DNA of 62,425 bases, the filler included, from Collodictyon triciliatum (Eukaryota): NCBI GenBank assembly GCA_043381765.1. It is 4 parts of 4 records of this genome, joined end to end, with 100 filler letters (N's around TTAATTAATTAA, not from the genome) between each part and the next. Parts side by side here need not be neighbours in the genome. Positions count along the whole stretch, not along the records: positions 24,683 to 44,447 come from JBHJMP010001281.1; 3 more parts are not named here. One strand, written 5' to 3'. The notes under the pieces are model-generated. The model saw only the letters and a program-made list of their open reading frames with translations. It was not told where the DNA came from and did not search any database. Positions within the stretch are counted from its first letter, which is position 1; each line of letters begins with the position of its first letter. The position numbers and the translations under genes were made by a program. This document shows positions 8,639 through 62,200 of the stretch, piece by piece.

Positions 8639-10734
8639 TCAATTAGATAGAGTTAAGAATATGCATGGGCAAGAAGAAAAGCAGCTGAACAGGCAATACG
8701 ACAAGCATTCGGCTATGCTGAAGCCAGGAGGCTCATACAACCAGCAGTAAATCGGTTTTGTATGAAGGGAAATTATGGGCGATGATTTTGATTGGGGCAC
8801 GAACCAGATTTTGCGATATGTTAAGGGCTTCAAGATTGGTAAGGAGAAGAAATGTTTCCGGCAGCTGGGAAATCTTCGTGTCGTACACACAATTAAAAAA
8901 AAAAACATAAATAAAATTGGTGATTGGATGCACTGATGAATTCATCAATATGATGACTTTGTATACGCGCCGCCCTGATTCAACAAACGTATCATTACCT
9001 TATTGTTCTGGAGAGCTAAGCGAGTAAGACCTTGTAATTTTGACATGCCCTCAGGAAGGGAAGATATCTACATTCAGGTATGACTGTCACAATATAATTT
9101 GCCTTATCGCACCAAGCGTTGTAATAGCCCACTCCCTATTGAATTGTATGGCATTTTGTATTCTTATAAATGAAACTATATAAAAAAATACATAATTGAA
9201 TGACAAGTCCAAGGCATCGATGGCTGGGAGCTGCAGGATAGAGTCGGAGATTTGATATAGCTATCAAAATAAGGATATTAACTGTTTTATAAATAGGAGG
9301 AATATGGATGTTGATAAGCGTTAGTGCAAGAGGGAAATATTGTAGGTAACTGCATTAAATGAGACAAAGCTATTGTGAAAAGTGGCGTAAATTTAAAACC
9401 TCGTTGTGCGAGAAACACAATTTTATTATGTTTGTCAGTATTGTAATGGAATCAGGTATTTCTGAAATCTAGTTGACCGCAGGTTTTCAAAGTAAAAAAC
9501 AATATCGTATATTCATCCAGATAACATGAAATTCATCAGCCCACTCCACTCACAAATAGTGAATCACTTATCATGTTAATAATCATAAAATCTATCTAAT
9601 GTCCAATTGAAAGAAAGAAGAAAATAATGATCAGTAAATACTCACCTTGTTGGAGGATATATCAATTTGTCGAAAATCTTTCATCAACCAAGAGTTAAGG
9701 TATGGTGTTATGTCTCGAATGTCTTTGTTTGTTTCAAAACAATCATATAAATCCAGCTCACGGAGTCGCCTATGGTCAATATTTCCTATTCCCCAACAAG
9801 ACAGATTGGATATCCCTTTATGAGCCCGGGTGACATTGACCAAGCCTTTACGTTCGATGTATAATACCTTTAAATTGGTCAGGTTTGTAATAGCCTCTGG
9901 GAGCATATCCATCTACACAAAGGGGCTTGGTTGTTATTTTCTCTGATAAAAAAAAGGACATATATTTTGACCAGAATGATTTCAAATATGAAAGAAAAAC
10001 TTTTTTTTTTTTGGTTTTCGTTTTTCGTTTTTCGTTTTTCGTTTTTCGTTTTTGGTTTTTGGTTTTTCGTTTTTCGTTTTTGGTTTTTGGTTTTTGGTTT
10101 TTCGTTTTTGGTTTTTCGTTTTTGGTTTTTCGTTTTTGGTTTTTCGTTTTTGGTTTTTCGTTTTTGGTTTTTGGTTTTTGGTTTTAATTCTATGATTGAG
10201 CATATTACAGGTCATCCAACTCATCAACCAACTCACAGGACATGACTGCAGACTAAGAAAGTAGAGGCTTTGCAAGGCAGACACCCAAGGAGGCAAAATC
10301 GATATGGGATTCAAGTACAGATTCAGTGTGTCCAACCGCGTCAGCTGAGACATGGAGTTGGGCAGCGTATCCAGCTTGTTTTCGTCCAAATACAGCTTTT
10401 CCAGGCAACTCAGCAAGCCAAGCCATTCAGGGAGGGTACTCAGCAAGTTTGAGTTGAGACGAAGAACTCGCAAGTTTGTCAACAGGGAAATCCCTTCGTG
10501 CATTACAAGCAAAGATTGGTGCTGGAGAACGAGTTTTGAGCAATGAAGCAGATCCCCGGCAGGACTGAACGACATTTTCACGAGCTCCTTCAATGAGGCG
10601 AGTTTGTCGCTTTCGCTTTGCGGCCCGGTTTCCTCGGTCTTTGACTCTGCGGCGGACTGTGGCGGAGTGCTTCTTTCCTCTCTCTCCAAGGGACTTTTGG
10701 AGTATGCTTTGCCAGACGACGTCGTGTTCCCCAT
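8639..10734 (-). CDS. Leucine-rich-repeat protein with an N-terminal myristoylation motif; last exon uncertain
   Basis: ATG at 10734 (MGNTTS...), then LxxLxLxxNxLxxLP repeats (LTNLRVLRLNSNLLSTLPEWLGLLSCLEKLYLDENKLDTLPNSM). Further exons at about 9647-9912, 9400-9468, 9192-9260, 8999-9067 and 8805-8873 each encode LRRs. Confidence 0.88.
9999..10185. repeat. (TTTTTCG/TTTTTGG)-type degenerate repeat in an LRR gene intron
   Basis: Read directly. Confidence 0.9.
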
Positions 10735-11039
10735 TTCTTTATTCTTTTTCCTCGATGGCGTGCGCGTGTTTGTTATTGTGCTACAGATATGACAGGTTCT
10801 TGTCTGGTGAGTGAATTGTCTCTGCTCAAGTTCTCGTTTTTTTGGGGGGTTTTTTAGTTTTTTGTTTGTTTTTTGGGGGGATTTGGGTTGTTTTTTGAGT
10901 TTTTTGTTTGTTTTTATTTGCGAAATTGTCAGCTTTTTTCTTCCTTTTGTTTTTCCTCCAAACGAAAAATGAAAGTTGAAAAGAGGGCAAAAAGATTCCA
11001 GAGAGAAGCAGCCACCCGGATGACAGACGACGCAGTTTC

Positions 11040-14000
11040 TTACGGATTCAGTTTCTTCCATGTCACAATCTATGGTAGGATTAGTTAGCGGTTGCTTGTC
11101 TATCATTCTGCTGGTAGGAGAGAATGTTTGGATGCAGCGAGAACCATACTGACTGGATTGATTGTCTGCCTATTTATTTATTTTTTATGATAAAGTATAT
11201 ATGTTTATGAATGGTGCGAATCTTTTGTTGTATACCTGTTTCAGGACATGCGCAAGAACATGCTTTGCTGAACTGCCTCCTGAAACCTTTGGGTTGATGC
11301 CCACAATCTCTCCACACTCACGGATATAATATTCCAAATCCTCGTCGTTGCCTATCGATAACCAGAACACCATGAGACAAACACTCGAAACACGTGGTAT
11401 TGAGTATCCCCATTGCGATTGGATACGAAGAAAAGGAGTCATGAGTCCAATAAAGAAAAATGAATGAATGAATGAATGAATGAATGAAAATCGCTATGCA
11501 TCATTAAATGCAGTAGAGTGAACCCATGGTTTACATTTGTTTGTCAACTGGGCTAGTCGAACTTGTTCAGAGGCAAAGTGCTCGTCGAGGTCGAAGAGAT
11601 CAAGTGCGGGCGGTGGTAATTCCCGCAGAGTTGGGGGAAACACTGCCGGCAAAAGCGGGGGGAGTGGCGTTTCAAACTAGTTTGTGGGAAAAGGGATGCC
11701 ATATGCTTCAATTAAAAAAATGCTTGGTTTCTATGACAGAGTAATTGCTGCTTGTATATCGGTGATTTTGAACGTTTATTATGATATTGGATTCTGAAAC
11801 TAACCCCATTCCGGGGTAAAAGAAATATAAATTAAGATAAAATGGGCTTCGTCATTATGAATTACTTGAGGAGGGATGAGAGCCAGTGTCTCGTGCTTCA
11901 CTCCCAATTCCTGTAATAGTAGAAATTATCTTTTAGTATCGGCTTTATTTTTTTTTTAAAAAAAAAAAAAACTTTGGCAATTCCACTCCAAAAATTTATG
12001 ATGTGCGTATATGCAACAGTTTTTATAAGTAAAAGGGGCAATAATATCGATAATACACCTCTATTAGAGGTTCTGATATTTAAAAGGCTCCGGATAGGAA
12101 GCTTAATATTGTTTTTGTTTCTAAAAAAAAAAAATTATTTCATTCGGAATGTCACTTACCGTATAAATCTTTAGTACTTCTGGGATTAGGCTAGTGTCGA
12201 ATTTGAATGGCGTGTCATCAAAAAGGGACATAAAATCTTTCGGAATTTCTTCACTTTCCTGGACACATATTTGTTCATTCAAATTGGTTAGAAAAAAAAA
12301 AGCAATAAACACATATATACATGGTTTCTTGGCGTTAGTATTTTCATTAATGTATAGAACCCCTTCTGTTATTTTGTTTAGGCTCTTAAAAAAAAACTAA
12401 CGGTTATGAGACACTATGTAAATGTGGTATTTGCAATAGTGATTTATTCACCTGAAGACAGCTACGGACTCTGGAAGAGAGTGCCTCAGTATCTGGAACA
12501 AATGTGTAGTCCGATATTTCTGGTGCATCGGCTAAGGGTATTCGATTGTAAGATGTAAGGTATTTGTATGGAGATAGTGGCAACATGTTGATATGAAGTA
12601 AATACGTCTGTAGTATTTCACTACTCATTCTACTTGGGTGAGCAGGACATGCCTTCGAATTATCAATGAGAAAAATGTTTTGTAAAAAGGGAAAAATTAA
12701 TCACCGTCTATGGAATCAAGGTTAAAGTCTTCGGCAGCAAGAAGCCACTTAAATATAATTTCTTGGAGAATAGAATTTTCTTCCTTTTCGAACCATTCAT
12801 CATCGAACATTCTAACTGAACCCAAAACAGCTAGCCTTCCTTTCTTGTTCTAAGGTTTAATGATACGTCAATGTTATTGATGTATCACGAAGGGTTAACA
12901 GCATTATTGTATGTACTTTTGAATGTTTCAAATTGAAAAAAATATAGACATGAAGTAGACATGTAGAGAAGCGAGCTGGAGCAAACCTTTGATACATAAA
13001 CACCACCGACTGGCCTATTAAGAGGATATGCAATATGCCCTGAGGAGAGTATTGGAATGGCAGGCTTCTGTACATTCAGAGTTGCCCCATATGGATAAAC
13101 GAACGTGAGTCCAGTTCTGTTGGTGTTTTGTGCAATTGTGCAAACAAATTAGTTTTCCATTTGAAGTTTTGTGATAAACATGTTCATTAGAGATGTATAT
13201 TTACTATGTCATGAACATGTAATTAATCTCATATCAGATTGAGTTAAAAAGGAGGGAAAAAATACGCAACGTTCGACGATTCTTTCCTTGCGTTGTGTCT
13301 ATCCTGTTTGCCGGCTGCTCTGTTGATGTTGCGGTTGAGAATTCCGTTTGTAATACAGACTTCCTGCGTTGCAGCATATTAATAGTGAAATGAAAGCTAA
13401 AAAGAAGAAGAGACGCATATAAATGTATGCAATAGCATATAGCGCTGTAAGTATACAGAACTACATAAACAAAGTCACAGCATCAGCTTCAGAGTTTCGT
13501 GGGGAATTCAAGACCTTGGGGTGGAAGTATTTGTAGAATACTGTCCGAACGACGCAGTCTGTATTTACTGATATTCCAAATTCTTCAAGCAAATAATTGA
13601 TATTGGTTCCATATTGGCCTTCTCCTCCCTCTCCCAGCATAACCAGAACACTTCCACCTTCATCCATGTATTTTTTGATTTGCTCAAACTAAATATATTT
13701 ATGTCAGAAATAACCAAAAATGATTAATTTCTCTTCTCAAAAAAAAAAAAAACACCAATTATAATGAGTGTTACGTTTTCTTTTCTAGAGGAAAAGATAT
13801 GTGATTCAGACAAAGATAGAAATAAATGTGCGAATACTCAAGAAAAAATACCTCAGCTGTGGTAAAACGCTCACGGGGGCCTCCGAGGATGAAAAGGCGC
13901 GCCTGCTTCAGAACGTCAACTGATATTTCCTCCTTGTTTCTAACATAGGTGATGAACCGGAAGTAGGAGACGGTTAAAAGAAGAATAAATATCTTGCTAG

Positions 14001-16171: not shown

Positions 16172-23754
<7,583 letters not shown>

Positions 23755-24582: not shown

Positions 24583-24682
24583 NNNNNNNNNNNNNNNNNN
24601 NNNNNNNNNNNNNNNNNNNNNNNNNNTTAATTAATTAANNNNNNNNNNNNNNNNNNNNNNNNNNNNNNNNNNNNNNNNNNNN
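24583..24682. other. artificial contig spacer (44 N + TTAATTAATTAA + 44 N)
   Basis: A 12-mer with stops in all six frames, centred in exactly 100 bp; the same structure occurs three times. Confidence 0.95.
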
Positions 24683-29500: not shown

Positions 29501-31382
29501 AGCTTTCCAATCTCATTGGTTATGCTCAAGGTATCAAAGAATCTATGTCTGCATTATCCAGAGGTATATTCACACTTTTAATCGAATAAAGGAAAAAATC
29601 CAGAGGTTTGTATATATCAATTATATGTATTCTAGGCTACTTCTCCATTTTAACTTTTCTATTGTTTCCCAAAATAGAACCACCGACAAAAATTGCAAGT
29701 GATTTTCTAAAGCTGCTGAACAGCAATAAATTTTGTGATATTTTTTTTATTCACAAGACAGGTATTGACTCTATTATATGCATTAAAAATCTATAAATAA
29801 ATCTATATATTTTCCATTACAATACATTATATGATGTATTGATCTTGAACATTATTATGAATAAAGGCGGACACCATAAAATCGGAGCTCATCGCAGTAT
29901 ACTTGGATGTAGAAGTCCTTACATGCTCCACATAATCAAAGATACAAAGCCCGGGGATATCGTATCTTGGGAATTGTGTGATTTAAAACTGTTAAACATC
30001 ATACTTCAATACATTTACACTGGTCGGGTTATTGATTATGAGCAAGAAAGAAAAGATGAATTACAATTCATTGCCGATAAAATGGGGCTTCTACACTTAA
30101 AATGGATTCTGGAGTCATCGTTTTCTCTCGATATGAATATTAGTGACTTACCAAATTTTATTAGTGATAGCTTATCGAATGATTGTACAAAATTATTCAG
30201 ATTTATATTAAAGTCTTTGGATGAGGACTTCATGGATGATGGGCTTGATTTGGATGGCTCTATGGAAAATTTCGAGTCAATAACTTTGTATTCTGCTTTC
30301 TATGATCTTGTTATACACGTCGAAGGAAAAGTTATACCTTGCCATAGAGGAATTCTATCTGCCAGGAGTTGGTTCTTTCAACGATTACTTGGTATTGGGA
30401 TGTCGGAATCTCTGTCTTTAGGGGGTGAGTTACTCTTTCGTATGATGAGAGTGCATTTAAATTAATTTTTTTATTCTTCCTTTCAATTTTGTGCAGAGTG
30501 CATTTAAATTATATCATACCTAGAAGCATATGTATCACCGGTGGATATATTTTAATAAATCATTTTCAATACTTTACAGAAGAAAGATATGAGGTTCATC
30601 TTTCAGATGTTAGCTACAAATCTACCCTAGCAATGGTGAAGTTTTTATACACTGGGACGTTGGATGCTGATGGTAGTAATATTATGGAGGTCTTGGTCAT
30701 CTCAGATAGGTACCAATTACCGCGTATGAAAAGGGCTGCAGAAGTAGTCATATCAACACACTTGGACACCGAAAATGCGATTCATGTTTTGGCATCGGCA
30801 GATGCATATAATGCCGGGTTCATTTGAATAATAAATCAATAATATATTATGACATATTTGCAACACTTTATCATTAAAATATAGATAATATTATAAGAAT
30901 AGCTATCTGACTTGCAATAATGAGTAATTTGAAAAACATACTAAAGAATTTTAATAAACCATATTACAGTTGGCTGATCCGAAAGGCTGTGAAATACATT
31001 TTAAATAATTATGTATCATTAAGAAAACATAGTGGATGGGACTCACTAAATGAGAATCTGAGGTTATTCTGAACAGATTTCTAGATGTACATTTGCTTCA
31101 ATTTAATGGCATCTAAGTCTTTTAAGAAGCTTTTAATTATTTTTCTATTAGTTTTTTTGGTTTATTTGTTTTAAAGTCAAAGTCGTAAAATTCATGGCAA
31201 TATATAATTACAATAGAGATCATATTGACGAATGCTACCAACATTCACTCCACCGTACGACTGCTATCTCTCCGCATATAATACCTGAATCTTCAGAGAC
31301 CAGGAGTTCGTTGTTGCAGACAAGGAGGCCATCGCTCCGTTCTCTTCTGAGCACTGGAAAAAGGATACTTGGTTTCAGCTAA
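26543..31382 (+). CDS. TPR-repeat plus tandem BTB/POZ domain protein; multi-exon
   Basis: TPR-like exons: ESRIFNCLGIAEYNLGNY, EAAMMANVGLVEERIG, ACQNMGYVHSLLGNIREANKFF. BTB1: DFLKLLNSNKFCDIFF..IGAHRSILGCRSPY..ILQYIYTG. BTB2: YDLVIHVEGKVIPCHRGILSARSWFFQRLL..MVKFLYTG..DRYQLPRMK..ENAIHVLASADAYNA. Confidence 0.88.
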
Positions 31383-34684: not shown

Positions 34685-39123
<4,439 letters not shown>

Positions 39124-39499
39124 AGCGCTCTTGACTGCCTCTATAGGAGCGCGTGGTGTTGGATCCATCTATTATATCTTCTTTTTTTTCTTCAATGAGG
39201 ATGAAGCCTGCAAGTATTCCAAAGAGCGTTAGACTGTAGTGCGTTTTGTTTACGCCACACGATCGTTTCATCAATACTGCCACATAATCCACAGGGTTTC
39301 TTGGTCGAGTATCCAGGAAGAGTTTACCAGAAGTATTGTTTATTGCGCGTTTTTTATTGTTTGTTTTTAGTTCTACTTGACCTGGCTTTTGGACATTGGC
39401 GGACTTTCTATGCTTACCGCTAAACTGTACCAACCACCCTTTTTATAATGGACGCAAGACACTATTTTGCCTCATTTATAGTTTTAAATTGCATTTTTG

Positions 39500-39660
39500 T
39501 ATATATTCCATAAAAACATGGGGGTTACCAATATTTCGATTGATAAACTTGGTGCGCTAATATCCAAGGTCTCACCACTTTTTTCACAAAGGCCGTGTAG
39601 TGATGAAGGCTGCCTGGAAAGACCCGACAGCCTGTTCTTTTAGAGGAATGCGTATGCACT
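39500..39660 (-). ncRNA. Putative Fanzor omegaRNA scaffold (relic)
   Basis: Five consecutive hairpins just 3' of the Fanzor stop: 39608-39632, 39572-39606, 39548-39568, 39527-39544 and 39508-39521. The position matches TnpB/Fanzor guide-scaffold loci; expression is unknown. Confidence 0.45.
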
Positions 39661-40191
39661 ATTGAAGGATTAAAAGAACTTCGTTGAGTATATCATTAGC
39701 GGTGTTAAAGTCCCTTGTCAAGAATACAGTTTGTTTGCTTTCTGAGCGATTAGATTATTTACATATGAGACATCTATACACTTTTTTGAGTTTCATTTCA
39801 GTTTCATATATTCCAGTTCTTTTTCGCAGTTGTAGCACATCTTGAAGGTTCTAAATTCATCTACACTAACTGTTTCAAAACGTTTGGATAGTATCATTCG
39901 TAATCCTCTTCCAATTGTTGCCATAACATGTTTCATCGGACATTTTCTGCTCCAGTCTCCATACGCCAGTACAACATCTTTGCCAAATGTCTTTTTAATT
40001 CTTTCCATAAACATTTGCTCATTTCTTTTTGTATTAACATACTGTCTCCATATCATCTTTCGAAAAGTTACGTGTTCATAAAATCTGGATAATTCTATCT
40101 GGTATTTTTACTTCATAGATACTTATTTTCGAAGTTTATCATAATCGACCGAGCACGAATTTTGTTTACTCGGTTCTGTCCCTAAATCGAT
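39659..40191 (-). pseudogene. Fanzor1-like RNA-guided endonuclease pseudogene (RuvC-II, zinc finger and RuvC-III region)
   Basis: Reconstructed: TEPSKQNSCSVDYDKLRK*VSMK*KYQIELSRFYEHVTFRKMIWRQYVNTKRNEQMFMERIKKTFGKDVVLAYGDWSRKCPMKHVMATIGRGLRMILSKRFETVSVDEFRTFKMCYNCEKELEY / KKVYRCLICK / SNRSESKQTVFLTRDFNTANDIL. In-frame TAA at 40123-40125 and 40108-40110, two frameshifts near 39790 and 39757; RuvC-I is absent. Confidence 0.85.
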
Positions 40192-40925
40192 TTAAGATAC
40201 TCTTGGTGCCTCAAACTGCTAATTCTCTTCAAAAGTCCTGGCGCCAAAAGAAACAGCACTTTGTAAACCTGTTGCCATGGATATCTTGCTACTCGCGAGT
40301 CGATGGCTAGAGCTCGTTTTGTTTTCTTTTTCTTTCCCTTTATTATTCGTTTCAAAGAGCTCGCTCCGTCTTATTATTAGTTTGTTGTACTCACGGGTCG
40401 GTGGCAGCTGGCGTCTTGGTCGTTAGTGTGTCTCGGTGCATAAACTGTGCTGCAAAGGATGTGATCAAGCGACCTTTTCGCTCTCTGCATTGGCTGCGTC
40501 AGCCTTCCCAGTTTGCGTCCGGTCAGTAGCCGTTCCACGGGGTCAGGGCTGTGGCGCCGGTCTCGTCCTTCTCGGGATCCCTCTTTCCGATCGCTTGTGT
40601 GTGTTTTTCTTTTTTTTCCGCTTCAGAAAGTAGTGGGGTTGGGAGAAAGTAGGAAAGAACCCCTATGCAATGATATTATTTATCAGAGAATATGTCATTT
40701 CTTCTCAGTGTTTATTATTTCTCAGCAAAGGACACTTTTTTTATTCAGCGCGATTATTTTTTATTGTTCTCGACTCTGTCTCTCTCTGTCAGTGCGATCA
40801 CCACATTTATTCACATTGTGTGGCATTGCAATAGATCAACCTTTGGAAATTTATTCCACATGAAGATATTTTTTTGGAAGTGTAACACCAGCAAAAGAAA
40901 AAAAAGAAGCGAAACTAAAACATCA

Positions 40926-40995
<70 letters not shown>

Positions 40996-41107: not shown

Positions 41108-43591
<2,484 letters not shown>

Positions 43592-44447: not shown

Positions 44448-44547
44448 NNNNNNNNNNNNNNNNNNNNNNNNNNNNNNNNNNNNNNNNNNNNTTAATTAAT
44501 TAANNNNNNNNNNNNNNNNNNNNNNNNNNNNNNNNNNNNNNNNNNNN
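44448..44547. other. artificial contig spacer
   Basis: TTAATTAATTAA at 44492-44503 within 100 bp of N. Confidence 0.95.
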
Positions 44548-44801
44548 TATTGTATTGTATTGTATTGTATTGNNNNNNNNNNNNNNNNNNNNNNNNNNNN
44601 NNNNNNNNNNNNNNNNNNNNNNNNNNNNNNNNNNNNNNNNNNNNNNNCATTAATTGAGACTCTATATAAAACTTTATTTTTAAAAAAAAAGAGAGAGACT
44701 GATTCAAAAGAAAAATGTCGCTTTGAGATAGAAGCAATCTTTTGATAATAAATTATTATTGTTTGTAAAAAAAAATAATCTGATGTGTATATACACAATA
44801 G

Positions 44802-45636: not shown

Positions 45637-45735
45637 TGTTTGTTTGTTTGTTTGTTTGTTTGTTTGTTTGTTTGTTTGTTTGTTTGTTTGTTTGTTTGTT
45701 TGTTTGTTTGTTTGTTTGTTTGTTTGTTTGTTTGT
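45637..45735. repeat. (TTTG)n microsatellite
   Basis: Read directly. Confidence 0.95.
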
Positions 45736-45763
45736 TTTTACCGAACCATGCAAATGGTTCCCT

Positions 45764-47227
45764 TCAGGCAAGGGTGGGCCGAACACCAACCGGACGTGGC
45801 GAATCTACAGATGAGGCTGACTTGAATCTAGAGACAGAAACAGCCCCAAAGAACCGGGAATTAGGAAGATGAATCCAGCGACACCAGCGAGAGGATTGGA
45901 GCGGAGCGGGCGGTAGAATGCGGGCGACGGAGATTAGTGTGCGGCACAGCAGACAGACACATGACAGGTGAGGGAGAGGGGATTCAGGGACGCACCGGCG
46001 GGGCGGGCGGGCGGAGAGAGGGGGTGGGCCGGAGGGCCTTTGTGGCGCGGGGCGGCGGCGTGTGTGCGTCCACGGCCCATGCCTGCAGACGGGTGCGCGT
46101 GCCGCGGGTGAGTATTGGCGAGACAGAGGGGGCGACTGGACGCACCAGCCACACAGCACGGCGCGGTGTGACATGGCATGACGTGGCAACAGAACAGAAG
46201 AGAAGAGAAGAGAAGAGGGACGCACGGCGGCGACGCAGCACAATGGCGTGGGAGTAGGCGTAGAAGGGGCGCGTGAGGGCCGTGGCGAGCGGGGCGTCGC
46301 TGTTGCTGTCGCTGTGCGGGGTGCGGTGCAGGGCGAGGCGCAGGCAGAAGAGTCGCTCGCGGTGCTTTGCAGATGCCTCGCACAGCGTCAGCCCCGCCAC
46401 CACGCACGCCCCGCCCACCACCGCCCACGCCCCGGGACCCCCCAGGATCCGCCCGCCCCCGGGCACCGCCTCCGCCGCGCCCTCCGCACCCGCGTACAGC
46501 AGCTCCGCCCGCACCCACAGCCCCCCGCCGGCGGCTGCTCCTGTGGCTGCTCCTGTGGCTGCCGGGCCCGACACAGACACCTGCACGCTGAACGACCTGC
46601 AGGCGGCCGGGGTTAGGATCAAGAGCGCAACCGGATGCTGGAGCGGAGCGGGGCGGGGTCCTACCGGATCTCCTGCGGCGTCCGCGTCCGCACCTCGCAC
46701 GGCGGCTGCACGTCGATGGTGAGCCGGAACGGCGTCGACGAATCCGGGTCTGTTGAATCCGGGTCTGTTGAATCCGAGTCTGTTGAATCCGAGTCTGTTG
46801 AATCCGAGTCTGTTGAATCCGAGTCTGAGGAGTCCGAGTCCGAGGAGTCCGGCAGCAGGGCGAGGGGCTCCGGCGGGGCGTCGCGCAGCAGGGCGCAGAG
46901 GGCCGGGTGCGGGCGCAGCAGGGCGGCGAGCGGGGGCGTGGGCAGGGCGGGCCAGGCGGCGGCGCGGCGGGCCACACAGCGGGCGACGGCGGCGGCGTTG
47001 AGGGCTGCAAAGCGCCGCACAGACGGCCCCGCCCCGCACCGGGCCACCACGCCGCCCGCCAGCCGCTCCGCCTTGCCCAGCTCTGCCGCCACGCGCCCCT
47101 CAAACAGCTGCCCCCCGCCCCACCGCCCCGCCTCCGCCACACGCCGCAGCCCCGCGTAGTCCACGTAGAACCCCGCCCACCCCGCCTGCGCCTGCGCCTC
47201 CCGCCCCAGCTGCCGTCCGAACCCCAT
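45764..47227 (-). CDS. SPX-domain protein fused to a putative Velvet/Rel/CBP60-like DNA-binding domain; 4 exons
   Basis: Exon 1 (47227-46665): MGFGRQL..WAGFYVDYAGLRR..FEGRVAAELGKAERL..VRRFAALNAAAVARCVARR (SPX pattern), a (DSDST)n linker, then FRLTIDVQPPCEVRTRTPQEIR. Exon 2 (46596-46226): SFSVQVSV..LWVRAELLYA..ILGG..LTLCEASAKHRERLFCLRL..TRPFYAYSHAIVLRRR. Exon 3 at 46082-45996; last exon uncertain. Confidence 0.72.
46737..46850. repeat. 15-bp coding tandem repeat (GAATCCGAGTCTGTT)n encoding an acidic (DSDST)n linker
   Basis: About 5 near-perfect units plus degenerate copies, read directly. Confidence 0.9.
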
Positions 47228-47489
47228 CCGCTCCCGCCCTTCCTGCCTGGATCGGCTCTGTCTGTCGTCCCTTTCTCCCTCTCTTTCTCCCGCTCTTTCT
47301 CCCTCCTGGCCTCTGCCGTCTGTGCCTGCCTTCCGTGGCTTCGTGGCGTCCGGTGGAATGCTTTTCCCTTGGTTGGTTGCTGTGTCTCGCCATGCCTTGC
47401 ATGATATCCGCCCGCTTCCGCTTCCGATTCCGCTTCCGGACATCGTATTCCGCATGTGGCTAGTGCACTCAACCAGCCAATGTAATGCG

Positions 47490-48118
47490 CTACCACAATT
47501 GGTATTGCCGCTTCTGGTGATTATCGGCTTTGCATCTTGTTTTTCCCTTTCGTGGAATTTTTGTGGAGCGATTAATTTACCTTTTGCTCTGTGTCAAAGT
47601 CAGCCAGGTGGTTGTGGATGTGTTTGATTTTATTCTCGATCGCACAGCTGGTCATGTCGGCGTTAGTGCAGTTTTCTTTGGGATTTGTCTGCAACTGGCT
47701 CGTCTGTGCCGAAGGAGTTGCCCAACCTAGCGAGTGTTTTCGTTAGCCAGCTAGCGTATTGGAATCCCTTGCATCGACATGTATTCGTATGTGTTGGACG
47801 TGAAGGGGGAGAGTGGCTAGGACAGCCTCAGGGCTTGCAATTGGTTGTGTCGGGATAGGAATCAGAAGTAGTTGTAAGTCATCAGGTATTTGTTTTCAGA
47901 CAGGGATAACTGTGATATATCTCATCCTTTCATATCCCGACACGGGAATAGCACTAGAGTTGCGTGGCTTGTGTCGTTCACTAACCTCTCTTCAAGACGG
48001 GCCAGGCGCTGGTGATTTCCTGTGCTGAATCCTGCTGTCCGTGTGTGTCGAGACGTCTCCCGAGTGAATTGTTGTGCCTGTTGTCGTTGCCAGTGCTGCG
48101 CATAACCGTGGACTGCAT
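47490..48118 (-). CDS. Possible small 3-exon hypothetical protein (about 100 aa)
   Basis: Phase-compatible GT-AG model MQSTVMRS...WPVLKR/GWATPSAQ...HNHLADFDTEQK/KRQYQLW*; no homology recognised. Confidence 0.3.
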
Positions 48119-53775: not shown

Positions 53776-55075
53776 ATGATGTGCAAGCTATGACACAACT
53801 TATTCAAAGGCGGCGTTTGTCCTAAGGTATTTAATTGTTGCAAAGTCCGGCGCATGAAGACATTTACCGTGTTATTTGTTCATAGGATACTGGAACAACC
53901 AGTCATAGGTTCTGTTTTCAATAGATAATGCCCTTCTCTTGGGTCAAGGACCAATTGCTATTGTGTATCATTTTTTTTTTTTATTGATGAGGTTGGAATG
54001 AAGCTGAAAATAAAGAAAAATGCTTGATTTAGACAAAAGAGAAATAAAGAAGAAAAGATGGCTCGCTCTTCTCAAGGTATTCGCATACGCATCCAGTGCT
54101 CTCTGCGCAAGAGAACATGTTCTATGACTTCTTATCTAATAAAGCCCAAAACGAAATGAAGCCAAGCTTATTCATACAAACAGTTTTTATCATCTAGAAC
54201 TTATGAGATTACATAGCATCCAAGGTAAAATCATACCTTGCAAGGATGTCGGTCTATTTGCCCCTGNNNNNNNNNNNNNNNNNNNNNNNNNNNNNNNNNN
54301 NNNNNNNNNNNNNNNNNNNNNNNNNNNNNNNNNNNNNNNNNNNNNNNNNNNNNNNNNNNNNNNNNNNNNNNNNNNNNNNNNNNNNNNNNNNNNNNNNNNN
54401 NNNNNNNNNNNNNNNNNNNNNNNNNNNNNNNNNNNNNNNNNNNNNNNNNNNNNNNNNNNNNNNNNNNNNNNNNNNNNNNNNNNNNNNNNNNNNNNNNNNN
54501 NNNNNNNNNNNNNNNNNNNNNNNNNNNNNNNNNNNNNNNNNNNNNNNNNNNNNNNNNNNNNNNNNNNNNNNNNNNNNNNNNNNNNNNNNNNNNNNNNNNN
54601 NNNNNNNNNNNNNNNNNNNNNNNNNNNNNNNNNNNNNNNNNNNNNNNNNNNNNNNNNNNNNNNNNNNNNNNNNNNNNNNNNNNNNNNNNNNNNNNNNNNN
54701 NNNNNNNNNNNNNNNNNNNNNNNNNNNNNNNNNNNNNNNNNNNNNNNNNNNNNNNNNNNNNNNNNNNNNNNNNNNNNNNNNNNNNNNNNNNNNNNNNNNN
54801 NNNNNNNNNNNNNNNNNNNNNNNNNNNNNNNNNNNNNNNNNNNNNNNNNNNNNNNNNNNNNNNNNNNNNNNNNNNNNNNNNNNNNNNNNNNNNNNNNNNN
54901 NNNNAAAAAAAAGCAAGAGTAAATGACCCACAAGAAAAAGCGAACGGAAATAACAAAAGTAAAAAAGAAAAAAGAAAAAAGAAAAAAGAAAAAAAGAAAA
55001 AAAAGAAAAAAGTAAAAAAAAGTAAAGAAAAAAAAGAAAAAAAAGGAAGAACAAGTTAAAAGAAGCCAACCAAAC

Positions 55076-56581: not shown

Positions 56582-56681
56582 NNNNNNNNNNNNNNNNNNN
56601 NNNNNNNNNNNNNNNNNNNNNNNNNTTAATTAATTAANNNNNNNNNNNNNNNNNNNNNNNNNNNNNNNNNNNNNNNNNNNN
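56582..56681. other. artificial contig spacer
   Basis: TTAATTAATTAA at 56626-56637 within 100 bp of N. Confidence 0.95.
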
Positions 56682-59229: not shown

Positions 59230-62200
59230 ATGGGAGCGTCGTGTGGTACGTCAAGAAAGCGGCTTGTTCCTGTGGAAGACGACCCTGACTCTATGGCTTT
59301 TCGGGTGAGATGCTCGCGAGAATCCAACAAGGTTTGCTCTTATTTGAACAGTTGCATTTTTTTTCTCTTGACAAAACAAAACACAACAAAACAAAAGAAA
59401 ACAAAAGAAAACAAAAGAAAACAAAAGAAAACAAAAGAAAACAAAAGAAAACATTAGAAAATACAACAAAACACAACAAAACACAACAAAACACAACAAA
59501 ACACAACAAAACACAACAAAACACAACAAAACACAACAAAACACAACAAAACACAACAAAACACAACAAAACACAAGAAATCAAAAGAAATCAAAAGAAA
59601 TCAAAAGAAAACAAAAGAAAACAAAAGAAAACACAAAAAACACAAAAAACACAAAAAACACAAGAAAACACAAGAAAACACAAGAAAACACAAGAAAACG
59701 CAAGAAAACAAAGGAAAACAAAGGAAAACATCAGAAAACACAACATAACACAACAAAACACAACAAAACAAAAGAAAACAAAACAAAAGAAAACAAAACA
59801 AAACACAAGAAATCAAAAGAAATCAAAAGAAAACAAAAGAAATCAAAAGAAAACAAAAGAAAACAAAAGAAAACAAAAGAAAACAAAAGAAAACAAAAGA
59901 AAATAAAAGAAAACAAAGGAAAACAAAGGAAAACAAAGGAAAACAAAAGAAAACAAAAGAAAACAAAAGAAAACAAAAGAAAACAAAAGAAAACAAAAGA
60001 AAACAAAAGAAAACACAAGAAAACATTAGAAAACATTAGAAAACATTAGAAAACATTAGAAAACATTAGAAAACATTAGAAAACATTAGAAAATACAAGA
60101 AAACAAAAGAAAACACAAGAAAACACAAGAAAACACAAGAAAACACAAGAAATCAAAAGAAAACACAAAAAACACAAAAAACACAAAAAAACACAAAAAA
60201 ACACAAAAAAACACAAAAAAACACAAAAAAACACAAAAAAACACCAAAAAAGGAAAACAATTGGACTCTTAAAAGTTTGAATATGTCTCCTATCCATTCA
60301 CACTTGCAACAGTTTCTTAATTGAATCATGAAAAGTCTGCTACAAATGATTTCTTATCCTTTTTTTTATTTTTAGCTAGATGCACATGGAGAATCATTGA
60401 CAGAATATCCGAAAGAGTTTATGGATGCCAGTCATTTGCGAATACTAAACCTTGGAGCAAACAAACTTTCTACACTTCCTTCTATTGTATCAGTACTTGT
60501 AAATCTGGAGGATTTTCAAGTAAAAAGAAAAACAGCATCTATGTTTAGCACCCTTTTCTTTTGTAAACATGTATAAAGTTCTCGTATCTTCAAATCCTTA
60601 TGAAATCGGTGGTGAACAATCTGTATACTTGTGACTCCCTTAATTCAAATTCTTCTTCCATTAAATATATGCCTCGTGTGTTACATAAATATCTCTAGTA
60701 TTGATTTATGCAAATACTTCCATCAGTTGTTTGACAACGATTTGGAGCAGCTTCCATCCCAGATATCATCCTTGACGTCGATAAGAATCCTGAATATCAG
60801 CAACAATTCTCTCAGCTATATACCTAGAGAAATCGGCTGTTTAACATTACTCGCAGAACTGCTGCTGTGGGGAAATAACTTGGACTCACTACCTGATGAA
60901 ATAGGAAACGTCTGTAACATAACCTTACTTGATGGTTCGTACAATAGACTTAGCAGCCTACCTGCCACGCTTGGCCAGCTTTTAAAACTGAAGGCAATTG
61001 CGTTATATCGATTTGATATGATATGTTTTGTATTTTGACTCATGTTCCAAACATTTATGTTTCTTTGCTCAGAAGGTTCATCATTTTAAGGAAACTGTCT
61101 TAATTTAGCTTTCGTAGTAGATTTATGTGAAAGTTATATTCTAAGAAATCTATGCACAAATGTAGGATGTCAAGTTTTCTGGGAATCGCCTGACCTCTTT
61201 ACCAGCCTCTGTAGAAACTCTGACTTCCTTACTTTCAGCAGATTTTTCTCACAATCACCTGCATTCTATCTGTGCAGGTATATCTGCTTGGTCTAATGCT
61301 ATGAAACTAAATTTCAGAAGGAACAGAATCAGTTTTCTTCCTGATGAATTTGAGGGTTTATCTCACCTGGCTGAGTTGAATATCCAAAACAATCAAATAT
61401 CAAGCCTACCTGTGTCTATCTGCAAATTGCCCATCATAAAGCGTCTCATATTCACAGATAATAAGGTACTATCTCAATTTCGTGCTAAATTAGAGGCACT
61501 TTTTTTTTTTTTTTTTACTCTTCGAATAGCCACCGAACCACATGGAAACTTTAATATTTTAAACTGACCCTTTGTATGGACACCTTTTCTATATATTCCC
61601 TCATCCCCACCTAGGAACACATCGAATCACTATATTCATTCATTTAGTTGACAGCTCTTCCCGATGAAATGTCGAACATGAAAACGCTGAATATGCTTCT
61701 TGTTGACGAAAACCCCCTTGAGCATCTTCCAGACGGACTTTTTAACATAACTAGCTTGGCCTCTATTCAAGTATCAAGCCATAGGCTCAAGGTGTTGCCT
61801 TCTTCACTTCCATCATCGAAGAATATTTATATTCTCTCAGTTGTCGATGGAACTTTAGGTAGCATATTCTTTTAGATGCATATAAATGGTCACGTGAACC
61901 CGAGCATAATTCAAATTTACCAATGTCCTCTTCAAAAAACAACAACATGGGATAATGTATTTTGTGCTTTTAGAAAGCATGCCAGACACATTCTCATCAC
62001 CAATGAACAGACTGTGTAAAATCGACTTGTCAAAAAACCAGCTTACAAGTATATCTTCTCCCTTGGATGGATTGTTTAACATACAGGTGTGCAAGGACCT
62101 AGTCATGAAAAACAAAACTCTTGTATGCTGATATGTCTATAAAAAAAAAAAACGTGTCACCTACAATCATCTTATCAACCAAATTATCGTAGGACCTCAA

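What the first reader, a model, noticed from the sequence alone, without database searches (positions are those of the whole stretch)
39659..40191. Fanzor1-type eukaryotic RNA-guided nuclease relic between host genes
Seen: an intron-less, decayed minus-strand frame. It contains FRKMIWRQY..MERIKKTFGKDVVLAYGDWS..GRGLRMILSKRF..VDEFRT(F)KMCYNC and, after frameshifts, RCLICK and TRDFNTANDIL. Established: GDWS, a relocated RuvC-II glutamate in a DExxTS-like motif just before a CxxC zinc finger, and RuvC-III RDxN are features of Fanzor1/TnpB-derived OMEGA nucleases in eukaryotic transposons and giant viruses. Inference: this protist lineage hosts or hosted a Fanzor family. This copy is dead (two TAA stops, two frameshifts, no RuvC-I), but intact siblings could be a new programmable nuclease.
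Basis: partly seen in the sequence, partly recalled or inferred. Interest (0 to 1): 0.9.

Follow-up and report, generated by a model that had tools for sequence, protein, structure and literature searches.

The report
Dead Fanzor1 nuclease gene fragment
A broken copy of a transposon-borne Fanzor1 RNA-guided nuclease gene, missing its front part, lies between host genes; such relics are common in eukaryotic genomes and this one cannot work.

Summary
The quoted peptides are all present on the minus strand. The 104-aa frame matches solved Fanzor1 proteins (Parasitella E 7.7e-12, Spizellomyces 5.8e-6, Guillardia 5e-4). It matches a profile of 60 full-length relatives at E 1.9e-48.

The relic is larger than reported. 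It spans 39584-40326 and equals residues 391-642 of the closest intact relative, the 648-aa metagenomic protein P0157 (54-55% identity, E 1e-68). It keeps these features:
- Gly at the canonical RuvC-II site (GDWS)
- the relocated catalytic Glu (SpuFz1 E541 equivalent)
- two CxxC pairs
- the RuvC-III Asp (D606 equivalent)

The first 390 residues, including RuvC-I, are absent from the whole window. The frame carries seven premature stops and one -1 frameshift (not two).

It belongs to a multi-copy family. Four broken fragments at 74-82% identity exist, and hundreds of diverged contigs from three sequencing runs lie on it. The closest relatives for which DNA was available lie in giant-virus contigs. 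There they sit inside 3.3-kb Tc1/mariner-like elements with a DDE_3 transposase and 32-nt inverted repeats. The window has no transposase or inverted repeats.

Verdict: the identification is correct, the biology is ordinary, and no intact sibling was shown in this genome.

The parts
39584..40326 (-). Fanzor1 pseudogene fragment, the C-terminal ~39% of the gene. It corresponds to residues 391-642 of the 648-aa relative P0157. It is read in two frames joined by a -1 frameshift.
   Evidence: tblastn of P0157: residues 391-580 map to 40326..39781 (54% identity) and residues 572-642 map to 39808..39596 (55%), E 1e-68. tblastn of P0003 gave E 1e-40. The family HMM matched positions 425-566 and 558-603. 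The terminal TGA at 39584-39586 was read.
39949..39963 (-). YGDWS. A Gly sits where canonical TnpB has the RuvC-II Glu.
   Evidence: It aligns with MGDWS of SpuFz1 and LGNWS of PpFz1. G and W are invariant in 20 full-length relatives. The literature feature is in PMC10530073 and PMC3627910 (G500).
39844..39861 (-). DEFRTF. It holds the relocated catalytic Glu (codon 39856-39858). The second residue of the [TS][TS] motif is Phe in this copy.
   Evidence: It aligns with LDEYKTS of SpuFz1, and the Glu corresponds to E541. E, T and S are invariant in 20 relatives. Most sibling contigs have Ser at the Phe codon.
39826..39837 (-). First CxxC of the zinc finger (CYNC).
   Evidence: The cysteines correspond to invariant C537 and C540 of P0003.
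39761..39772 (-). Second CxxC (CLIC). It is followed by a premature TAA and a Ser where relatives have a further Cys.
   Evidence: It aligns with RCLVCNGC of P0003 and RCLICKEC of P0157. Most sibling contigs carry Cys at codon 39752-39754.
39704..39718 (-). TRDFN, the RuvC-III motif. The Asp codon is 39710-39712.
   Evidence: It aligns with TRDLN of P0003, whose Asp aligns with chain position 1000 of 8gkh_P, which is SpuFz1 D606. This Asp is invariant in 20 relatives.
39781..39787 (-). Site of the single -1 frameshift, in or beside a run of six A.
   Evidence: The two HSPs change frame here. The sibling fragment P0156 reads MKLKGNSKKVY in one frame. Some sibling contigs carry an extra base at 39779-39781 (table 4).
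40219..40221 (-). Premature stop TAG.
40192..40194 (-). Premature stop TAA, private to this copy.
   Evidence: Most sibling contigs carry a sense codon here (table 3). P0157 and P0001 have Leu at this position.
40123..40125 (-). Premature stop TAA.
40108..40110 (-). Premature stop TAA.
39793..39795 (-). Premature stop TGA, private to this copy.
   Evidence: All contigs laid here in X1 and X2 carry a sense codon (table 3). P0156 and P0157 have Gly at this position.
39755..39757 (-). Premature stop TAA inside the zinc-finger region.
39659..39661 (-). Premature stop TAG. Homology to P0157 continues for 21 more codons behind it.
39510..39583 (-). 3' flank still shared with sibling copies. It may be a remnant of the element's right end or of an omega-RNA region (inferred).
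   Evidence: Contigs of X1, X2 and X4 cover 39510-39651 and stop there (tables 2, 7, 8). In the relative L001 the right inverted repeat ends 47 nt behind the stop codon.
40340..40600 (.). Separate multi-copy repeat ('unit B') that abuts the truncation point. Not shown to be part of the Fanzor element.
   Evidence: Many contigs lie on it, but several continue with different sequence below 40327-40340 (table 7; X2 record 14). It has no Fanzor homology, no Rfam match, no folding signal (z +0.34), and no Pfam hit on its ORFs.

Best explanation
This is a non-functional, 5'-truncated pseudogene of a Fanzor1 gene. Fanzor1 is the eukaryotic and giant-virus descendant of the transposon nuclease TnpB.

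An intact gene of this subfamily encodes a protein of about 634-648 aa. Guided by an omega-RNA transcribed from its own 3' end, that protein cuts DNA with a RuvC site built from three residues: a RuvC-I Asp, a relocated Glu just before the zinc finger, and a RuvC-III Asp. In the closest relatives whose DNA could be examined, the gene rides in a 3.3-kb Tc1/mariner-like element. That element also carries a DDE_3 transposase, 32-nt inverted repeats and TA at both ends.

A copy of such an element inserted in the intergenic DNA upstream of a CUX1/CASP-like host gene. It then lost its 5' part: the transposase, the left end, and Fanzor residues 1-390 including RuvC-I. It has since decayed by seven stops, one frameshift and substitutions at conserved residues.

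Shown: homology, the retained and lost motifs, the defects, the multi-copy family, and the architecture of the relatives.
Inferred: the insertion and truncation history, and that the 3' flank is the old right end.
For: **Homology**
- The relic matches solved Fanzor1 proteins: E 7.7e-12, 5.8e-6 and 5e-4.
- It matches a 60-protein family HMM at i-E 1.9e-48 and 1.3e-6.
- tblastn of P0157 gives E 1e-68 over residues 391-642 of 648.
- Full-length relatives match the three Fanzor1 structures along their length. P0003 against SpuFz1 gives E 9e-37 over residues 14-607. The 20-protein profile gives 6e-92, 1e-84 and 2e-73. P0157 gives 2e-28 to 4e-23.

**Catalytic residues**
- Mapped through onto D383, E541 and D606 of SpuFz1 (PMC10432273, passages).

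**Missing 5' part**
- No window sequence matches HMM positions 1-424.
- No window sequence matches P0157 residues 1-390 (best other hit E 0.17).
- None of 74 full-length proteins hits elsewhere in the window below E 0.08.

**Defects**
- Listed.
- Two of the stops and four substitutions at conserved residues are private to this copy. Most contigs of sibling copies carry family-type codons there.

**Multi-copy family**
- 4 of 4 near-length hits are short broken ORFs at 74-82% identity.
- 223, 211, 88 and 1 contigs from X1, X2, X4 and X5 lie on 39510-40645, mostly at 80-95% likeness, while the flanks are almost bare.

**Relatives**
- 541 of 599 pattern matches in IMG/VR encode relatives.
- L001 has an intact 634-aa ORF, a divergent DDE_3 transposase (E 1.3e-13) and perfect 32-nt inverted repeats.
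- A transposase homologue is present in 35 of 80 viral loci and 1 of 16 metagenome loci.
Against: - No inverted repeat (0 pairs), no TA-flanked end and no transposase remnant (best E 2.7) could be found in the window. The transposon context of this copy is therefore inferred from relatives at only about 50% protein identity.
- The closest intact relative (P0157) was available only as protein. Its own element type is unknown.
- Pfam and NCBIfam give no hit on the fragments.
- The host organism was not identified.
- About a third of sibling contig depth, not the majority, shows an extra base at the frameshift site (table 4). Part of the family may therefore share this defect. That would mean dead copies were themselves multiplied, which the simple 'insert, then decay' history does not cover.
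Confidence: 0.92

Rival explanations
1. The fragment is a leftover of an integrated giant-virus genome piece, not of a transposon that lived in the host genome.
For: Among relatives whose DNA could be inspected, the closest lie in giant-virus metagenome bins. In L001 a ribonucleotide reductase small-chain gene sits next to the element (E 2.6e-100). Bao and Jurka describe virus-integrated Fanzor elements in host contigs (PMC3627910, passages).
Against: - The repeat shared with siblings is only about 0.8-1.1 kb and is present as many diverged copies. That is the pattern of a dispersed repeat, not of one viral insert.
- The neighbouring ORFs are host-like: a CUX1_N exon with an intron, plus BTB and LRR genes.
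- P0157-type peptides were not found in IMG/VR: 36 pattern matches, of which 0 were relatives.
- The window was not screened systematically for giant-virus marker genes.
Confidence: 0.06
2. The truncated copy is retained because its 3' end still supplies an omega-RNA. An intact Fanzor1 elsewhere would use that RNA in trans, as in the 'ghost' loci of Spizellomyces.
For: - The 3' end of the gene and about 70 nt behind the stop are kept and shared with siblings.
- The stretch 39480-39760 folds somewhat better than shuffles (z -1.88; 9 of 200 shuffles fold as well).
- Saito et al. report 134 loci with the ends but without the ORF and suggest trans use (PMC10432273, passages).
- 5'-truncated copies with intact 3' ends are known for CRe elements (PMC3627910).
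Against: - The folding signal is weak.
- No alignment of sibling DNA was available to test covariation.
- No Rfam match was found.
- No intact Fanzor1 was shown in this genome.
- The coding part accumulates stops and private substitutions, as neutral DNA would.
Confidence: 0.05
3. The frame is a live exon or a recoded gene, through stop-codon reassignment or programmed frameshifting.
For: Five of the seven premature stops are TAA or TAG. Some protists read those codons as sense.
Against: - All three stop codons occur: TAA four times, TAG twice and TGA once.
- They align with different residues in relatives: Tyr, Met, Gly, Glu/Gly, Leu and Ile.
- There is also a frameshift.
- The RuvC-I half is absent.
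- Invariant residues are substituted.
- Host exons nearby are open under the standard code.
Confidence: 0.01

Closest known systems
Spizellomyces punctatus Fanzor1 (SpuFz1, PDB 8GKH; Saito et al. 2023, PMC10432273)
   Same: - The C-terminal RuvC and zinc-finger core aligns. GDWS matches GDWS, DEFRT(F) matches DEYKTS with the Glu at E541, and RD matches the Asp at D606.
- The intact relatives are of similar size, 634-648 aa. P0003 aligns over its residues 14-607.
- The S. punctatus genome also holds partial copies and ORF-less 'ghost' elements.
   Different: - The window copy lacks everything upstream of residue ~391, including the RuvC-I Asp (D383 equivalent), and is full of stops.
- Sequence identity is low, with E only 5.8e-6 for the fragment.
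- SpuFz1 elements have 30-nt inverted repeats and no transposase inside. The relatives seen here carry a DDE_3 transposase.
Parasitella parasitica Fanzor1 (PpFz1, PDB 9CF0; PMC11423790, seen in the search listing only)
   Same: It is the best solved match of the fragment (E 7.7e-12, query residues 13-102) and of the family profile (6e-92).
   Different: It is a longer protein with extra insertions. The chain is 1259 residues including the MBP fusion, and the match comes in two to three separate stretches. It is an intact, active enzyme, whereas this is a dead fragment.
Fanzor1 genes inside Tc1/mariner elements of large DNA viruses and eukaryotes (e.g. PGv-1, PUl-1; Bao and Jurka 2013, PMC3627910)
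   Same: The relatives L001 and L006 have the same layout: a mariner-type (DDE_3) transposase plus Fanzor1 between inverted repeats, with TA next to both ends, in giant-virus contigs. The motif given in the paper is D-x-[TS][TS]-x-x-C4 zinc finger-x-RD. The relic shows this motif from [TS] onward.
   Different: In the window none of the transposon hallmarks survive. Only the C-terminal part of the Fanzor ORF and a short 3' flank remain.
5'-truncated Fanzor1 copies with intact 3' ends (CRe-1/2/3 of Chlamydomonas; PMC3627910)
   Same: A 5'-truncated copy whose 3' end is kept, belonging to a multi-copy family (paper passages).
   Different: The CRe elements are Helitron2-type. Their 3' bias is explained by rolling-circle copying, which is not expected for a Tc1/mariner-type element.
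P0157 / P0261 (648-aa uncharacterised metagenomic proteins)
   Same: - They are the closest intact relatives: 67% identity over the 104-aa frame and 54-55% over 252 residues including stops.
- They share with the relic and P0001 a linker of roughly 30 residues after the RuvC-I region. P0003 and L001 lack this linker.
- All three catalytic motifs and the cysteines can be read in the sequence.
   Different: They are intact.

Membership tests
Fanzor1 | Significant sequence homology to experimentally characterised Fanzor1 proteins, stronger than to Fanzor2, TnpB or Cas12 | tested here: met
   - Fragment: only the three Fanzor1 entries score below E 0.001 among 177,635 PDB sequences. The other 6 of 9 listed hits have E >= 0.93.
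- Family profile A2: Fanzor1 at 6e-92 to 2e-73. The next hits are TranC at about 4e-4 and Cas12m at 7e-3. No Fanzor2 or TnpB entry appears at E <= 0.01.
Fanzor1 | RuvC-I aspartate (DPG/DPN motif; SpuFz1 D383) | tested here: not met
   It is absent from this copy. No match to HMM positions 1-424 or to P0157 residues 1-390. A possible vestige '...TKTPAATDP' at about 40399-40434 is not significant (59 of 500 shuffles score as well). The copy is therefore a relic of the family, not a working member.
Fanzor1 | Canonical RuvC-II Glu replaced by Gly or Pro, with a relocated catalytic Glu downstream (SpuFz1 E541) | tested here: met
   AYGDWS has Gly at the canonical position. The Glu of VDEFRTF lies 34 residues downstream and aligns with E541. 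The feature is described in PMC10530073. G, W and E are invariant in 20 relatives.
Fanzor1 | [TS]-[TS] pair two residues before the zinc finger | tested here: not met
   This copy reads T-F. Relatives and most sibling contigs read T-S. The substitution is private to this copy.
Fanzor1 | C4 zinc finger (CxxC ... CxxC) | tested here: met
   CYNC and CLIC are present. A further Cys that is conserved in the close relatives P0003 and P0157 is Ser here, and a stop codon lies directly behind CLIC-K.
Fanzor1 | RuvC-III 'RD' aspartate (SpuFz1 D606) | tested here: met
   TRDFN aligns with TRDLN of P0003 and NRDM of SpuFz1.
Fanzor1 | Complete open reading frame with the N-terminal REC/WED part | tested here: not met
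   Seven premature stops, one frameshift, and the first ~390 residues missing.
Fanzor1 | Omega-RNA encoded at the 3' end of the gene and the right end of the element | not testable with these tools
   Only weak hints were found: the 3' flank is shared with siblings and the fold gives z -1.88. No sibling DNA alignment and no small-RNA data were available.
Fanzor1 | Residence in a transposon (inverted repeats, target-site duplication, often a transposase) | tested here: not met
   - Window: 0 inverted repeats of 12 nt or more in 39400-40760, no transposase match, and no match to the L001 repeat.
- Relatives: met in L001 and L006, and in 36 of 96 loci for the transposase.
Fanzor2 / TnpB | Closer similarity to Fanzor2 or IS200/IS605/IS607 TnpB than to Fanzor1 | tested here: not met
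   No Fanzor2 or TnpB chain was listed for the fragment at E <= 10, for P0003 at E <= 0.01, for P0157 at E <= 0.001, or for the profile at E <= 0.01. Pfam Cas12f1-like_TNB (PF07282) is hit weakly by relatives. Of the 8 scanned, 1 was above the curated cut-off and 4 were weaker hits.

The most novel reading that the evidence does not exclude
The relic marks a high-copy, possibly still active Fanzor1 subfamily in an unidentified freshwater eukaryote. The subfamily is set apart by a linker of roughly 30 residues behind RuvC-I. Its intact 648-aa members (P0157, P0261) would be compact new RNA-guided nucleases. Many of the truncated copies, which keep the 3' end, may survive as omega-RNA donors used in trans. 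The nearness of this subfamily to giant-virus-borne Tc1/mariner-Fanzor1 elements would then point to giant viruses as the vehicle between hosts.
Probability: 0.15. Interest if true: 0.45.

Novelty: new member of a known kind. Interest (0 to 1): 0.2.

Why it matters
The relic itself does little: it is one more dead copy of a family already catalogued in thousands of eukaryotic and viral genomes (3,655 unique Fanzors in PMC10530073, passages).

Its value is as a pointer:
- It shows that this host lineage carried a multi-copy Fanzor1 family.
- It leads to an intact, uncharacterised 648-aa relative (P0157) that could be tested as a nuclease.
- It links that subfamily to Tc1/mariner-type elements that are abundant in giant-virus bins. 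This fits the older idea that large viruses spread Fanzor genes (PMC3627910).

For annotation, the stretch should be masked as a transposon pseudogene and not called as a gene.

Tried and rejected
1. **Domain libraries.** Pfam and NCBIfam on the three fragments gave no hits. The family is too divergent for those models, so this does not count against the reading.

2. **Whole genome and earlier findings.** Neither was available. No search for intact siblings in the same assembly was possible.

3. **First 'longer' word-index search.** It found nothing (16 candidates, none scored). This was a false blank, because the exhaustive search and the alignment-seeded search found many relatives.

4. **My idea of an 11-nt tandem duplication at 39800-39822 causing the frameshift.** Rejected. 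The sibling P0156 reads MKLKGNSKKVY straight through. The shift is therefore a single missing base at the A-run, and the TGA is a point change.

5. **Extending the relic upstream to RuvC-I.**
   - 40195-40398 against the P0001 N-terminus was not significant alone (291 of 2000 shuffles).
   - P0157 then supported extension only to 40326.
   - Frames of 40327-40700 against P0157 residues 1-395 were not significant (best 59 of 500 shuffles).

6. **Transposon ends and partner.** No inverted repeats, no transposase, no L001-type repeat.

7. **Unit B (40340-40600).** No Rfam hit near threshold, no fold signal, no Pfam hit on its ORFs, and a 24-mer from it was absent from IMG/VR. Its nature stays unknown.

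8. **Flank similarity to related loci.** Only short AT-rich matches.

9. **Metagenome scan with relic peptides.** 16 loci, all at 44% identity or less, with no close sibling DNA.

10. **IMG/VR scan with P0157.** 36 pattern matches, none a relative.

11. **Tree of 219 rows over 100 columns.**
    - Input rows were those with at least 85 aligned residues: 94 of 96 loci and 141 of the 156 proteins then held. Identical rows were merged.
    - The relic's nearest row is P0001, then the viral locus L003 and P0152.
    - No well-supported clade holds the relic, so the tree is too short to place it.
    - Named Fanzor1a-d references were not available.

12. **Sequencing runs.** No RNA holder is listed, so nothing can be said about expression. 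All holders had small shares of the words.

13. **Protein Atlas on a neighbouring 298-aa ORF, tried to get a hint of the host.** All scores were below 0.9, so it was uninformative.

14. **Self-comparison.** There is no second copy of the repeat in the window.

15. **Supplementary tables.** The supplementary tables of PMC10432273 and PMC10530073 list Fanzor loci and hosts but could not be opened. They may already contain this subfamily or host.
Full report
**What is there**

A 104-aa frame (39793-40107) reads KYQIELSRFYEHVTFRKMIWRQYVNTKRNEQMFMERIKKTFGKDVVLAYGDWSRKCPMKHVMATIGRGLRMILSKRFETVSVDEFRTFKMCYNCEKELEYMKLK. It is followed in another frame by ...KKVYRCLICK, a stop, and SNRSESKQTVFLTRDFNTANDILNEVLLILQ.

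This is not a chance resemblance:
- phmmer of the 104 aa against all PDB sequences lists Parasitella parasitica Fanzor1 (E 7.7e-12), Spizellomyces punctatus Fanzor1 (5.8e-6) and Guillardia theta Fanzor1 (5e-4). Nothing else scores below E 0.9.
- An exhaustive HMMER search of 1.84 billion representative proteins gave 1370 hits at E<=1e-3 and 288 at E<=1e-10. Many were proteins of 620-700 aa matched at about residues 450-560.
- Pfam and NCBIfam do not recognise the fragments.

**Extent**

- With the relative P0003 (634 aa), tblastn aligns residues 419-550 to 40191..39796 and residues 552-588 to 39799..39689, without gaps, at E 1e-40.
- A profile of 60 full-length relatives (580-760 aa, chosen from the 154 proteins then held) hits the six-frame window only here. 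Model positions 425-566 score i-E 1.9e-48 and positions 558-603 score 1.3e-6. Nothing anywhere in the window matches positions 1-424.
- A later search seeded with the close fragments found P0157, an intact 648-aa protein with 67% identity to the 104-aa frame.
- P0157 aligns over residues 391-580 to 40326..39781 (54%) and over residues 572-642 to 39808..39596 (55%), at E 1e-68.

The relic is therefore 39584-40326, wider than the reported interval on both sides. It represents the last ~39% of the gene, nearly up to its natural stop. P0157, P0001 and the relic share a linker of roughly 30 residues that P0003 and L001 lack. They therefore form a subfamily.

Upstream of 40326 no frame matches P0157 residues 1-395 better than shuffles do. 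A tempting '...TKTPAATDP' string opposite the DPG motif is reached by 59 of 500 shuffles.

**Motifs**

From the printed alignments I derived an offset of 394 between PDB chain 8gkh_P and SpuFz1 numbering. D-P-N at chain positions 777-779 equals D383-P384-N385. Saito et al. state that Mg2+ is held by E541, D383, N385 and D606 (PMC10432273, passages).

- The Glu of the relic's VDEFRTF aligns with chain position 935, which is E541.
- The Asp of TRDFN aligns, through P0003, with chain position 1000, which is D606.
- AYGDWS aligns with MGDWS. Jiang et al. describe that Fanzors have Gly or Pro in place of the canonical RuvC-II Glu and use another Glu downstream (PMC10530073, passages).
- Bao and Jurka give the family motif D-x(125,275)-[TS][TS]-x-x-C4 zinc finger-x(5,50)-RD, and note a highly conserved Gly and Glu in Fanzor1 (PMC3627910, passages).
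- In 20 full-length relatives the DPG Asp, the G and W of GDW, the relocated Glu, T-S, three Cys and the RD Asp are invariant.

The relic keeps all of these except two. The RuvC-I Asp is absent, and the Ser of T-S is Phe.

**Defects**

- In the upstream frame: TAG 40219-40221, TAA 40192-40194, TAA 40123-40125, TAA 40108-40110 and TGA 39793-39795.
- Then a -1 frameshift at the A-run 39782-39787.
- In the downstream frame: TAA 39755-39757 and TAG 39659-39661. The final TGA is at 39584-39586.

My own first idea, that an 11-nt duplication caused the shift, was wrong, because the sibling fragment P0156 reads MKLKGNSKKVY in one frame. The stops are of all three kinds and stand opposite different residues in relatives. 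Codon reassignment therefore does not rescue the frame.

**Family in the host lineage**

Near-length search found 4 proteins, all from one source class. Each sits on a contig of 513-539 nt and each is a short ORF of 59-84 aa, at 74-82% identity. Two of them visibly switch frame.

One search for sequencing runs gave five holders with small word shares. I laid four of them on 38800-40900 at 80% likeness or more:

| Run | Contigs laid | 99+% | 95-99% | 90-95% | under 90% |
|---|---|---|---|---|---|
| X1 | 223 | 21 | 30 | 75 | 97 |
| X2 | 211 | not quoted | not quoted | not quoted | not quoted |
| X4 | 88 | not quoted | not quoted | not quoted | not quoted |
| X5 | 1 | not quoted | not quoted | not quoted | not quoted |

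- These contigs cover 39510-40645, while the flanks are bare or nearly so.
- The stretch is therefore a dispersed repeat in those data sets.
- At two stop codons (40192-40194, 39793-39795) and at four conserved residues, most sibling contigs carry the family-type codon. Those defects arose in this copy.
- Only part of the sibling depth shows an extra base at the frameshift site (table 4). P0001 reads the same shifted 'KKCI'. The shift is therefore either recurrent slippage or shared by many copies.
- One close contig (X2 record 13, 13 differences in 226 nt) leaves the window sequence at 40285. This fits with the window copy being truncated there or shortly above.

**The neighbour 40340-40600 ('unit B')**

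- It is also multi-copy, but several of its copies continue differently below 40327-40340 (table 7; X2 record 14).
- It has no Fanzor, Pfam or Rfam similarity and no folding signal.
- I treat it as an unrelated repeat abutting the break.
- No second copy of either unit is in the window.

**Relatives and how the intact system is built**

541 of them encode relatives, and the best 80 are mostly giant-virus bins at 40-56% identity.
- In L001 (a 254-kb contig) an intact 634-aa ORF (3663-5567) lies head to head with a 346-aa ORF. The 346-aa ORF carries DDE_3 (E 1.3e-13) and an HTH domain.
- Both ORFs are enclosed by perfect 32-nt inverted repeats at 2299-2330 and 5583-5614.
- TA occupies the second and third positions of each repeat arm, so a 28-nt repeat flanked by a TA duplication is an equally good reading. 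A ribonucleotide reductase small-chain gene lies next door.
- L006 has the same layout.
- A homologue of that transposase occurs in 35 of 80 viral loci and 1 of 16 metagenome loci. This is a lower bound, because many loci are cut by contig ends.
- This is the Tc1/mariner-Fanzor1 arrangement already described for large DNA viruses and eukaryotes (PMC3627910; PMC10530073 for Fanzor1c).
- The window holds no transposase remnant, no inverted repeat and no L001-type end.
- P0157-type peptides were not found in IMG/VR. The metagenome scan with relic peptides gave only distant loci.

**Context**

- Downstream on the same strand lies a CUX1/CASP-like gene. The exon 38762-38938 hits PF25398 at E 1.6e-5, which is 25.3 bits against a cut-off of 27.
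- One X2 contig with 0-3 differences joins 38927 to 39065, skipping 137 nt in frame. This looks like an intron.
- The repeat's 3' edge (~39510) is about 340 nt upstream of that gene's ATG at 39168.
- BTB and LRR genes lie elsewhere in the window.
- The host was not identified.

**Mechanism and verdict**

An intact member would act as an omega-RNA-guided RuvC nuclease that helps its transposon persist. This is established for TnpB and for several Fanzors (PMC10432273, PMC10530073). The copy in the window cannot do so. It lacks one of three catalytic residues and the whole RNA- and DNA-binding front half, and it cannot be translated.

- The most likely history is insertion of a Tc1/mariner-type Fanzor1 element, loss of its 5' part, and neutral decay. 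This history is inferred.
- A giant-virus insert as the source, and survival as an omega-RNA donor, are minor rivals.
- The finding is a correct call of a known kind of relic. Partial Fanzor genes, ORF-less 'ghost' elements and 5'-truncated copies are in print.
- The useful by-product is the intact 648-aa relative P0157.
- I could not see the supplementary tables of the Fanzor surveys, which may already list this subfamily.

Noticed in passing
window 45700-47650: A GC-rich island (65% GC in 46001-48000, against 31-45% elsewhere) with long open frames in several phases. These are typical of GC-rich non-coding DNA. It also holds a 15-nt tandem repeat at 46740-46840. Five ORFs there gave no Pfam hit.
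   Followed up: partly
window 47855-47935 (-): Rfam match to the C/D-box snoRNA family snoR38 (RF00213), just above its gathering score (47.9 against 45 bits, E 6.9e-5). It lies at the edge of the GC-rich island.
   Followed up: no
window 40340-40600: A separate multi-copy repeat ('unit B') with many contigs in runs X1 and X2. It has no coding, Rfam or folding signal. A 24-mer from it is absent from IMG/VR.
   Followed up: partly
window 38762-39168 (-): CUX1/CASP-like gene start. The first exon begins with ATG at 39168 and the second exon hits PF25398. A 137-nt stretch (38928-39064) is skipped in frame by one contig of run X2, with ends that are not plainly GT..AG as reported.
   Followed up: partly
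window 40926-40993 and 41812-41920: Long (AAT)n and (ATT)n microsatellites in inverted orientation, with up to 89-nt arms 846 nt apart. (TACA)n lies at 38618-38715. The window is rich in such simple repeats.
   Followed up: no
window 19830-20030, 24583-24682, 38609-38617, 44448-44647, 54267-54904, 56582-56681: Runs of N totalling 1187 bases. Several come as 44-nt blocks separated by 12 bases. They are gaps or withheld stretches.
   Followed up: no
window 29797-30827 (+); 9982-11169 (-); 60616-61567 (+): Host-type genes: two BTB/POZ-domain exons and leucine-rich-repeat exons.
   Followed up: no
window 59289-60049 (+): A long lysine-rich tandem array reading KTKENKRKQKK... in two frames. It gives spurious weak hits in protein searches.
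   Followed up: no
L001 2299-5614; L006 2292-5614: Complete 3.3-kb Tc1/mariner-like elements in giant-virus contigs. They have perfect or near-perfect 32-33-nt inverted repeats, a DDE_3 transposase and an intact 634-aa Fanzor1 transcribed divergently. The right repeat starts 16 nt behind the Fanzor stop codon.
   Followed up: partly
P0002 (378 aa): One source names this Fanzor1 fragment '6-pyruvoyl-tetrahydropterin synthase'. This looks like a mis-annotation.
   Followed up: no
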